NCBI RefSeq assembly: GCF_044647545.1
Contig: NZ_CP172818.1
Strand: one strand, 5' to 3'
Source of the DNA: Escherichia coli
GTDB lineage: Bacteria; Pseudomonadota; Gammaproteobacteria; Enterobacterales; Enterobacteriaceae
Length of the DNA stretch: 64,000 bases
Shown here: positions 57,488 through 57,561 of the stretch, piece after piece
Numbering within the stretch: position 1 is the stretch's first letter
Layout of the letters: each line of letters starts with the position of its first letter
Position numbers and translations under genes: made by a program
The notes under the pieces: generated by a model
Told to the model about the DNA's origin: nothing
Databases searched by the model: none
The model's input: the letters and a program-made list of their open reading frames with translations, nothing else

Positions 57488-57520
57488 GGGCAATTCTCTG
57501 ATGAGGATTGCCCTTTTCTT
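57488..57520 (+). terminator. Rho-independent terminator after yibL
   Basis: gggcaattctctgatgaggattgccc followed by ttttcttt. Confidence 0.6.
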
Positions 57521-57544
57521 TACCAGACATCTCCCTCCACCAAG

Positions 57545-57561
57545 AATTGGCCCTACCAATT
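57545..57561. promoter_or_regulatory. LldR operator-like palindrome upstream of lldP
   Basis: aattggccctaccaatt, a perfect 7-bp inverted repeat about 200 bp upstream of lldP. Confidence 0.55.

What the first reader, a model, noticed from the sequence alone, without database searches (positions are those of the whole stretch)
57488..57561. yibL terminator followed by a perfect LldR-type operator palindrome
A hairpin plus T-tract terminator sits at 57488-57520. It is followed by aattggccctaccaatt at 57545-57561, which matches the palindromic architecture of LldR operators as I recall it, about 200 bp upstream of lldP. A second operator would be expected nearer the promoter but was not resolved by eye.
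Basis: partly seen in the sequence, partly recalled or inferred. Interest (0 to 1): 0.25.

Follow-up and report, generated by a model that had tools for sequence, protein, structure and literature searches.

The report
Known yibL terminator and LldR operator

Summary
Both parts of the observation are real and sit at the stated coordinates. A 13-bp stem and 4-nt loop (57486-57515, -20.9 kcal/mol, z = -5.5) is followed by TTTTCTTT. A perfect AATTGG-N5-CCAATT palindrome lies at 57545-57561, 199 nt before the lldP ATG at 57760.

Both are already known. The identical K-12 hairpin has a Term-seq 3' end, equal to window T57520, and terminates in vitro (PMC12207403). The 17-mer is the published LldR box 1 (O1) of the lldPRD promoter and also a PdhR box (PMC10272880, PMC7660256).

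An ArcA-like box and the promoter core lie between them.

An operator-blind sample of 87 LldP loci shows two boxes in all 50 Enterobacteriaceae. O1 is near-perfect, O2 is consistently imperfect, and spacing is 123-126 nt in 49 of 50. Other lineages show 104-105, 114-116 and 120.

Side results:
- Rfam's STnc380 is the antisense reading of this terminator plus O1, from a never-detected prediction.
- In most E. coli an ehaG adhesin island separates yibL from this hairpin.

Verdict: interpretation supported, already known, low interest.

The parts
57025..57387 (+). yibL coding sequence (120 aa, YibL family ribosome-associated protein), the upstream gene whose transcript the hairpin ends
   Evidence: ORF list. 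NCBIfam equivalog NF008244, 190.9 bits against a cut-off of 110.
57427..57467 (+). Degenerate REP-type extragenic palindrome in the yibL 3' untranslated region, a remnant of a two-REP element seen in other strains
   Evidence: Sub-threshold Rfam match to the REP-derived naRNA4, 27.3 bits, E 0.004. Alignment with strain 95-3322 shows a full pair of inverted REPs at this place.
57486..57521 (+). Intrinsic (Rho-independent) terminator: 13-bp stem and 4-nt loop at 57486-57515, U-tract TTTTCTTT at 57514-57521. The published 3' end corresponds to T57520.
   Evidence: K-12 is identical here. Term-seq plus in vitro termination in PMC12207403; the yibL template in its supplement marks GCCCTTTTCT*T*TACC.
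57545..57561 (.). LldR operator O1 (LldR box 1), AATTGGCCCTACCAATT, a perfect 6+5+6 palindrome. Also a published PdhR box.
   Evidence: unique, 0.01 expected. Published sequence identity. Core conserved in 50 Enterobacteriaceae loci.
57584..57589 (.). Conserved block TCACAA of unknown role between O1 and the promoter core, about -66 to -61 from the inferred start site
   Evidence: At least 90% conserved in 45 aligned Enterobacteriaceae upstream regions. No full CRP-type palindrome seen by eye. Function not established.
57616..57621 (+). Inferred -35 element TTGCTA (TTGCCA in K-12)
   Evidence: TTGC is conserved. Position inferred from the start site. The consensus promoter scan found nothing here, as expected for a weak, activator-dependent promoter. 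Inference only.
57627..57641 (-). ArcA-box-like sequence GTTAACTAAATGTTA overlapping the promoter spacer and -10 region
   Evidence: Only match with up to 2 mismatches to GTTAATTAAATGTTA in 64 kb, 0.18 expected; that consensus is from my own knowledge. It is the most conserved block between O1 and O2. PMC8689689 places the ArcA operator between O1 and O2.
57639..57650 (+). Inferred -10 element AACTAT (57639-57644) and inferred lldPRD transcription start near G57650
   Evidence: Inferred by placing the operator positions I recall from Aguilera 2008 (O1 -105 to -89, O2 +22 to +38; paper not held) on the sequence. Both intervals fit a single start at 57650. AACnAT and TTGTC are conserved.
57671..57687 (.). 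LldR operator O2 (LldR box 2), AATTGGCAGTGCCACTT, one arm imperfect, in the 5' untranslated region
   Evidence: Reverse complement of the published AAgTGGcactgCCAaTT. Present at the same place in all 50 Enterobacteriaceae loci, with C at position 15 in 42 of 50.
57760..61378 (+). lldP (57760-59415), lldR (59415-60191) and lldD (60188-61378), the regulated operon, which encodes the cognate regulator
   Evidence: ORF list. NCBIfam equivalogs: L-lactate permease 1199.5 bits, LldR 498.2 bits, LldD 822.8 bits.

Best explanation
The window is an E. coli chromosome segment with the order mtlD-mtlR-yibI-yibL-lldPRD. The finding covers two adjacent, independently characterised elements.

(1) Terminator. 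A Rho-independent terminator at 57486-57521 ends the yibL transcript at about T57520.

(2) Operator. Twenty-five nucleotides further on lies O1 (57545-57561), the high-affinity upstream operator of the lldPRD promoter, bound by a dimer of the GntR/FadR-type regulator LldR.

O1 works together with a weaker operator, O2 (57671-57687), just downstream of the transcription start (about 57650).
- Without lactate, LldR dimers on O1 and O2 interact, loop out the roughly 126 bp that hold the promoter, and repress it.
- With L-lactate, the O2-bound dimer leaves and the O1-bound dimer activates transcription.
- The pyruvate sensor PdhR can also use the O1 box.
- ArcA represses through a box over the -10 region under anoxia.

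What is shown and what is inferred:
- Shown in the literature for the identical K-12 sequence: termination, LldR and PdhR binding, and the dual role of LldR.
- Shown here: sequence identity, uniqueness in the window, presence of the cognate regulator, and conservation of both boxes and of their spacing.
- Inferred: the exact start site and the -10/-35 hexamers.
- Inferred: looping geometry as the reason for the conserved spacing.
For: Anatomy and statistics.

Gene identities, including LldR itself.

Identity to K-12 across the terminator, O1 and O2, with no indel between the two operators.

Literature:
- Both boxes are listed for the yibL>lldP spacer, which gave the strongest LldR genomic-SELEX peak (62.9). 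They are stated to agree with the two Aguilera 2008 sites.
- The 17-mer is quoted as required for LldR binding.
- The PdhR box matches 13/14 at the same sequence, and lldPRD mRNA rises 3.3-fold in a pdhR mutant.
- The repression-by-tetramer and activation-from-O1 model is described.
- Looping in the same angular orientation, and an ArcA operator between O1 and O2, are described.
- The yibL terminator has Term-seq support and terminates in vitro. Its template sequence is identical to the window.

Comparative evidence, from loci retrieved by an LldP codon pattern and so blind to the operators:
- 66 of 87 loci carry two boxes with up to 2 mismatches. Shuffled and coding controls gave 0.015 and 0.0135 hits per region, and never two.
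- With a relaxed rule, all 50 Enterobacteriaceae have the pair. Spacing is 126 in 37, 125 in 8, 123-124 in 4 and 120 in 1.
- O1 and O2 stand out as conserved islands in a 45-genome alignment whose left flank is not conserved.
- 4,695 of 5,426 complete E. coli genomes carry the terminator-plus-O1 82-mer, once each.
Against: - The primary footprinting papers (Aguilera 2008; Lynch and Lin 1996) are not in the held library. The start-site-relative positions therefore rest on my memory plus an internal consistency check.
- RefSeq K-12 annotates no regulatory feature here.
- O1 matches the genomic-SELEX consensus AAnTGGTCnGACCAnTT at only 12 of 14 positions.
- Nothing was measured in this strain. 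It differs from K-12 by five substitutions between O1 and O2 and one extra base left of O1.
- The consensus promoter scan finds no sigma-70 site.
- The helical-phase reading of the spacing has exceptions at 120 nt: two Thauera and one Pseudenterobacter.
- Most of the 126-nt cases share ancestry and are not independent.
Confidence: 0.95

Rival explanations
1. The palindrome is chiefly an operator of the pyruvate sensor PdhR, a paralogue of LldR with a near-identical box, rather than of LldR.
For: PdhR genomic SELEX lists AATTGGccctACCAATT in the yibL>lldP spacer as a 13/14 match to the PdhR box. lldPRD mRNA rises 3.3-fold in a pdhR mutant. The window's LldR also scores 179.6 bits on the PdhR model, which shows how close the two regulators are.
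Against: The LldR genomic-SELEX peak here is by far its strongest, 62.9 against at most 13.8 elsewhere. LldR shifts this promoter at the lowest protein concentrations, and induction by lactate is lost in an lldR mutant. The two-box architecture sits in front of an operon that encodes LldR itself in every Enterobacteriaceae locus examined. Dual use by both regulators is likely. Exclusive PdhR use is not.
Confidence: 0.03
2. The stretch encodes an antisense small RNA, a homologue of Salmonella STnc380 (Rfam RF02055). It would be transcribed from 57586 to 57477 on the minus strand, and its two hairpins would be the O1 palindrome and the terminator stem.
For: Full-length match to the RF02055 model on the minus strand, 32.8 bits, E 7e-5. 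The model's two helices fall exactly on O1 and on the terminator. Homologous sub-threshold matches occur at the same place in E. albertii and Citrobacter werkmanii. The minus-strand RNA would fold well, -45.2 kcal/mol, z = -5.8.
Against: The score is far below Rfam's gathering score of 60. STnc380 was only a computational prediction: class V, located between STM3691 and lldP, with 0 cDNA reads in both libraries and never probed by Northern. On the minus strand the hairpin is followed by AGGTTGTTG, not a U-tract. No promoter-like site was found on either strand. The stability is fully explained by a plus-strand terminator plus a protein-binding palindrome. The same palindrome type recurs as O2 outside the supposed RNA, at a conserved distance. 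Symmetric changes in the arms cannot discriminate, because a dimer-binding site predicts them too.
Confidence: 0.04
3. The palindrome is a chance inverted repeat, or part of the neighbouring REP-type repeat, with no regulatory role.
For: The intergenic region does contain repeat debris: a REP remnant at 57427-57467.
Against: An exact match is expected 0.01 times per window. A second copy lies 126 nt away. Both are conserved across genera while the REP region is not. Published binding data exist.
Confidence: 0.005

Closest known systems
LldR operators O1 and O2 of the E. coli K-12 lldPRD (lctPRD) promoter (Aguilera et al. 2008; LldR box AAnTGGTCnGACCAnTT of Anzai et al. 2023)
   Same: O1 and O2 are identical in sequence to K-12. 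Their order, their distance to lldP and their mutual spacing (126 nt, no indel) are the same, and the cognate lldR lies in the operon.
   Different: Five substitutions in the promoter core between the operators, for example TTGCTA for TTGCCA and AACTAT for AACCAT, and one extra base left of O1. These were not tested and could change promoter strength, but not operator identity.
Intrinsic terminator downstream of yibL validated by TERMITe, Term-seq and in vitro transcription (PMC12207403)
   Same: The hairpin, U-tract and marked 3' end are base-for-base the same as in the published template.
   Different: None in the terminator itself. In most other E. coli the gene in front of this hairpin is ehaG, not yibL.
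PdhR box (pyruvate-sensing GntR/FadR regulator)
   Same: O1 is a 13/14 match and lies under a PdhR genomic-SELEX peak.
   Different: PdhR acts here as an additional repressor. Lactate induction depends on LldR.
Rfam RF02055 STnc380, a predicted Salmonella sRNA between STM3691 (yibL) and lldP
   Same: Homologous DNA at the same intergenic position. The model helices equal O1 plus the terminator stem.
   Different: Opposite strand. The score is below the family threshold, and the founding candidate has no expression evidence.
Two-operator looping repressors such as LacI O1/O3 or GalR OE/OI
   Same: Two dimer sites bracket the promoter. Repression is attributed to protein-protein contact and looping. 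Spacing is conserved at about 12 helical turns, with 10- and 11-turn variants in other lineages.
   Different: LldR at O1 stays bound and turns into an activator when lactate is present. Looping itself is a literature proposal and was not tested here.

Membership tests
LldR operator (LldR box) of the lldPRD promoter | 17-bp inverted repeat of the type AATTGG-N5-CCAATT, identical to the published box | tested here: met
   Exact 17-mer at 57545-57561. The same string is given in PMC10272880, PMC3582500 and PMC7660256.
LldR operator (LldR box) of the lldPRD promoter | Lies in the spacer upstream of lldP and is paired with a second box near the transcription start | tested here: met
   O1 ends 199 nt before the lldP ATG. 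O2 is at 57671-57687, the reverse complement of the published second box.
LldR operator (LldR box) of the lldPRD promoter | Cognate regulator LldR present in the genome | tested here: met
   The protein from window 59415-60188 reaches 498.2 bits on the LldR equivalog model, cut-off 311.
LldR operator (LldR box) of the lldPRD promoter | Positions relative to the mapped start site (O1 -105 to -89, O2 +22 to +38, as I recall from Aguilera 2008) | tested here: inconclusive
   Both 17-bp intervals and their 126-nt offset fit a single start at 57650. However, the paper is not held and no start-site data were available.
LldR operator (LldR box) of the lldPRD promoter | Physical binding by LldR and lactate-dependent regulation | not testable with these tools
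   Published for the identical K-12 sequence: genomic-SELEX peak 62.9, gel shift, and a reporter dependent on lldR. K-12 identity is shown.
LldR operator (LldR box) of the lldPRD promoter | Conservation of the site in orthologous promoters | tested here: met
   Both boxes are present in 50 of 50 Enterobacteriaceae LldP loci retrieved without reference to the operator. Controls gave about 0.014 hits per region.
Rho-independent (intrinsic) terminator | G+C-rich stem-loop directly followed by a U-tract, downstream of a gene on the same strand | tested here: met
   13-bp stem with 6 G-C pairs, 4-nt loop, then TTTTCTTT. It starts 99 nt after the yibL stop codon. -20.9 kcal/mol, z = -5.49.
Rho-independent (intrinsic) terminator | RNA 3' ends at the U-tract, and factor-independent termination in vitro | not testable with these tools
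   Published for the identical K-12 sequence, with the 3' end marked at the base equal to window 57520.
Rfam RF02055 STnc380 sRNA | Covariance-model score at or above the family's gathering score of 60 bits | tested here: not met
   32.8 bits on the minus strand, 57586 to 57477.
Rfam RF02055 STnc380 sRNA | A detectable transcript | not testable with these tools
   The founding Salmonella candidate had 0 reads in both cDNA libraries and was not probed.
PdhR box | Match to the PdhR palindrome, and PdhR binding | not testable with these tools
   A 13/14 match and a genomic-SELEX peak are published for this exact sequence. Not re-tested here.

The most novel reading that the evidence does not exclude
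The terminator and O1 may work as one unit rather than as two neighbours.
- The hairpin would shield O1 from incoming transcription from yibL, or from ehaG in most E. coli, so that LldR or PdhR can stay bound.
- A regulator bound only 25 nt past the RNA 3' end would block any read-through into the lactate operon.

Separately, the O1-O2 distance appears to be selected in whole helical turns: about 10, 11 or 12 turns in Acinetobacter, Comamonadaceae and Enterobacterales. That would be comparative evidence for the proposed LldR loop.

The data do not exclude either idea. A hairpin ending 16-30 nt before O1 recurs in several genera, and the spacing classes are 104-105, 114-116 and 123-127 nt. They do not prove them either, given the three loci at 120 nt and the few independent lineages.
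Probability: 0.15. Interest if true: 0.3.

Novelty: already known. Interest (0 to 1): 0.07.

Why it matters
For the scan, this is a clean positive control. A reader working by eye correctly recognised a validated terminator and a textbook operator. The missing second operator, the ArcA-like box and the likely start site can now be placed on the window.

Beyond that the gain is small:
- The lldPRD promoter is widely used in lactate biosensors. The conserved asymmetry (near-perfect O1, imperfect O2) and the conserved 126-nt spacing are useful design constraints.
- The Rfam family STnc380 appears to describe a protein-binding palindrome plus the terminator of the opposite strand, not a proven RNA. 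That is worth flagging to curators.

Tried and rejected
- Primary papers: I tried to read Aguilera et al. 2008 and Lynch and Lin 1996 by PMC id and by DOI. Neither is held. No held paper quotes the operator positions relative to the start site. The supplement of PMC8689689 is not held.
- Annotation: the RefSeq K-12 record has only the two coding sequences here and no regulatory features.
- Promoter scan: the sigma-70 consensus scan found no promoter on either strand in 57300-57850. The -35 and -10 hexamers are therefore inferred from conservation and spacing only.
- STnc380 text search: it matched only 'STnc3800'. The real entry was in Table S3 of Sittka et al. 2008.
The REP label rests on the naRNA4 match and on the alignment with other strains.
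- Covariation: I considered using it to separate 'RNA hairpin' from 'DNA operator' for O1. I rejected it, because symmetric arm changes are expected under both.
- CRP site: I considered one at the conserved TCACAA block (57584-57589), but there is no matching left half-site at the required spacing. The block is left unexplained.
- Small ORFs: those overlapping the region (57508-57636 on the plus strand, 57399-57632 on the minus strand) were not pursued. Conservation there is confined to the operator and promoter blocks.
- Cross-genus terminator: the hairpin sequence is not alignable between genera, and only some loci pass a strict hairpin-plus-T-tract rule. Conservation of the terminator is structural at best.

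Full report
**What is in the sequence**

The window around the finding carries, on the plus strand:
- yibL at 57025-57387
- a 372-nt spacer
- the overlapping genes lldP (57760-59415), lldR (59415-60191) and lldD (60188-61378)

All four proteins hit their NCBIfam equivalog models far above the cut-offs, including the regulator LldR at 498.2 bits against 311. The DNA is E. coli. The 401-nt spacer region matches 5,420 of 5,426 complete E. coli genomes, and the 10 kb around it is 99.6% identical to strain WB61.

**Check of the observation**

The hairpin is real.
- Its arms lie at 57486-57498 and 57503-57515: 13 nt, one U·G position, a 4-nt loop.
- They are followed by TTTTCTTT.
- It is the only terminator-like site on either strand in 57300-57850.
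- It folds at -20.9 kcal/mol against -7.4 for shuffles, z = -5.49.

The palindrome AATTGGCCCTACCAATT is at 57545-57561.
- It is the only exact match to AATTGG-N5-CCAATT in 64 kb, with 0.01 expected.
- Allowing one mismatch gives exactly one more site, AATTGGCAGTGCCACTT at 57671-57687, where 0.29 sites are expected in the whole window.
- O1 ends 199 nt before the lldP ATG.

**The terminator**

A 2025 study of Term-seq data chose the terminator downstream of yibL as one of five E. coli intrinsic terminators for validation. It confirmed the terminator by single-round in vitro transcription. The template printed in that paper's supplement reads ...CTAAGGGCAATTCTCTGATGAGGATTGCCCTTTTCT*T*TACCAGAC..., with the starred T as the observed 3' end.

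The window is identical to K-12 through this stretch.

Across genera the hairpin sequence is not conserved. Even so, a G+C-rich hairpin between the yibL stop codon and O1 recurs, often ending 16-30 nt before O1. Only some of these pass a strict T-tract rule.

**The operator**

The LldR genomic-SELEX study of E. coli K-12 found its strongest peak (62.9) in the yibL>lldP spacer. It lists two boxes there, AAtTGGcCctACCAaTT and AAgTGGcactgCCAaTT, and states that they agree with the two LldR sites reported by Aguilera et al. 2008.
- The first box is the finding's 17-mer.
- The second is the reverse complement of 57671-57687.
- Another paper quotes the 17-mer as the sequence needed for LldR binding.
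- The PdhR genomic-SELEX study lists the same 17-mer as a 13/14 PdhR box and reports 3.3-fold derepression of lldPRD in a pdhR mutant.

K-12 and the window are identical in O1 and O2 and have no indel between them. They differ by five substitutions in the promoter core and by one extra base left of O1.

The primary paper is not in the held library. From my own knowledge it places O1 at -105 to -89 and O2 at +22 to +38. Those two 17-bp intervals are 126 nt apart, exactly as in the window, and both fit a start site at G57650. I mark that start site, and the hexamers TTGCTA (57616-57621) and AACTAT (57639-57644), as inferred.

**How it works**

The literature describes the mechanism as follows.
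- Without lactate, LldR dimers on O1 and O2 associate and sequester the promoter.
- With lactate, the O2 dimer leaves and the O1 dimer activates transcription.
- An ArcA operator lies between O1 and O2.

In the window, the only match in 64 kb to the ArcA box I know (GTTAATTAAATGTTA) is GTTAACTAAATGTTA on the minus strand at 57627-57641, over the inferred -10 region.

**Comparative test, blind to the operator**

I scanned one genome per species for a degenerate codon pattern of the LldP N-terminus (WQQNYDP). This retrieves lldP loci without reference to their promoters.
- Of 87 LldP-type loci (including the window), 66 have two boxes with up to 2 mismatches in the 460 nt upstream.
- Shuffled and coding controls gave about 0.014 boxes per region, and never two.
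- With a relaxed rule (both TGG/CCA cores intact, up to 4 mismatches), all 50 Enterobacteriaceae loci have the pair.

Spacing in the 50 Enterobacteriaceae loci (after correcting one mis-picked pair in L034):

| Spacing (nt) | Loci |
|---|---|
| 126 | 37 |
| 125 | 8 |
| 123-124 | 4 |
| 120 | 1 |

O1 is near-perfect: its consensus is AATTGGCCCTACCAATT, and both arms are perfect in 25 of 50 loci. O2 deviates in a consistent way: its consensus is TATTGGCAGGACCACTT, with C at position 15 in 42 of 50. This fits a strong anchoring site plus a weak site that depends on cooperation.

In a 45-genome alignment the following stand out as conserved islands, while everything left of O1 is unconserved:
- O1 and O2
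- TTGC (the inferred -35)
- ATAACATTTAGTTAAC (the ArcA-like box)
- TTGTC (the start region)
- a block TCACAA at 57584-57589

Outside the family:
- Erwiniaceae keep 124-127 nt.
- Comamonadaceae show 114-116 or 125-126 nt.
- Acinetobacter shows 104-105 nt.
- Two Thauera show 120 nt.

Most values are close to 10, 11 or 12 turns of 10.5 bp, which is what a loop between sites on one face of the helix predicts. The 120-nt cases and the small number of independent lineages keep this at the level of a suggestion.

**A database side-effect**

Rfam's family STnc380 (RF02055) matches the minus strand from 57586 to 57477 over its full length. The score is 32.8 bits, against a gathering score of 60. The two helices of the model are the O1 palindrome and the terminator stem.

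The founding entry in Sittka et al. 2008 is a computational candidate.
- It is class V, located between STM3691 and lldP.
- It had zero cDNA reads in both libraries.
- It was never probed on a Northern blot.

On the minus strand the hairpin is not followed by a U-tract, and no promoter-like site was found. The simplest reading is that this family describes a protein-binding site plus the terminator of the other strand. An antisense RNA is not excluded, but nothing supports it.

**Whose terminator is it**

In O157:H7 and many other E. coli, a DUF3251 gene and the roughly 4.8-kb trimeric autotransporter adhesin gene ehaG (annotated as YadA-like) lie between yibL and lldP.
- There the same hairpin and O1 follow the ehaG stop codon, with zero, one or two REP copies in between.
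- K-12 and this window lack the island, so here the hairpin serves yibL, as the Term-seq work on K-12 shows.
- The terminator-plus-O1 82-mer is present once in 4,695 of 5,426 complete E. coli genomes.
- Other genera have yibL followed within 33-60 nt by O1.

The island therefore looks like an insertion into an older yibL-hairpin-O1 arrangement. The REP remnant that the window shares with ehaG-bearing strains suggests secondary loss in the K-12-like lineage. I did not resolve this.

**Verdict**

Both elements are already known and experimentally characterised in K-12.

This analysis adds the coordinates of O2, of the ArcA-like box and of the probable start site. It also adds a cross-genus footprint, a note on operator spacing, and a caution about Rfam RF02055. 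Interest is low.

Noticed in passing
window 57477-57586, minus strand: Rfam family RF02055 (STnc380) matches here at 32.8 bits, below its gathering score of 60. The model's two helices are the LldR O1 palindrome and the yibL terminator read on the opposite strand. The founding Salmonella candidate was a prediction with 0 reads and no Northern blot. The family may not describe a real RNA.
   Followed up: yes
window 57387-57486; compare L122, L123, L124, L125, L126: Most E. coli carry an island between yibL and lldP: a DUF3251 gene plus the trimeric autotransporter adhesin gene ehaG (YadA-like). The window and K-12 lack it. In island-bearing strains the same hairpin and O1 follow the ehaG stop codon. 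The window's 10 kb at 52000-62000 corresponds to 14.6-15.7 kb in those genomes.
   Followed up: partly
window 57427-57467: A degenerate REP-type palindrome in the yibL 3' untranslated region, with a sub-threshold naRNA4 match. The number of REP copies at this spot varies between E. coli strains (0, 1 or 2).
   Followed up: partly
window 57584-57589: The block TCACAA, about -66 to -61 from the inferred lldP start, is at least 90% conserved in 45 Enterobacteriaceae. It matches no complete site that I could name. It may be relevant to the reported glucose repression of this promoter.
   Followed up: no
window 57616-57650, compared with K-12 (L001): Five substitutions relative to K-12 fall in the promoter core between O1 and O2, for example TTGCTA for TTGCCA and AACTAT for AACCAT. 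The operators and their spacing are untouched. This could change basal promoter strength in this strain.
   Followed up: no
loci L019, L039, L023-L096 (Acinetobacter, Comamonadaceae, Thauera): lldP promoters of distant Proteobacteria also carry two AATTGG-N5-CCAATT-type boxes. Their spacing is 104-105, 114-116, 120 or 125-126 nt. Most values lie near whole helical turns; 120 does not.
   Followed up: partly
window 57690-57759: The inferred roughly 110-nt lldP leader contains further conserved blocks downstream of O2: CCACTTTTACAC, GACTCA and the ribosome-binding region. Their roles were not examined.
   Followed up: no
locus L003: A contig labelled as an uncultured Oscillospiraceae genome bin carries an E. 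coli-type lldP promoter with O1 and O2 identical to the window. It is probably a mis-binned Escherichia contig.
   Followed up: no
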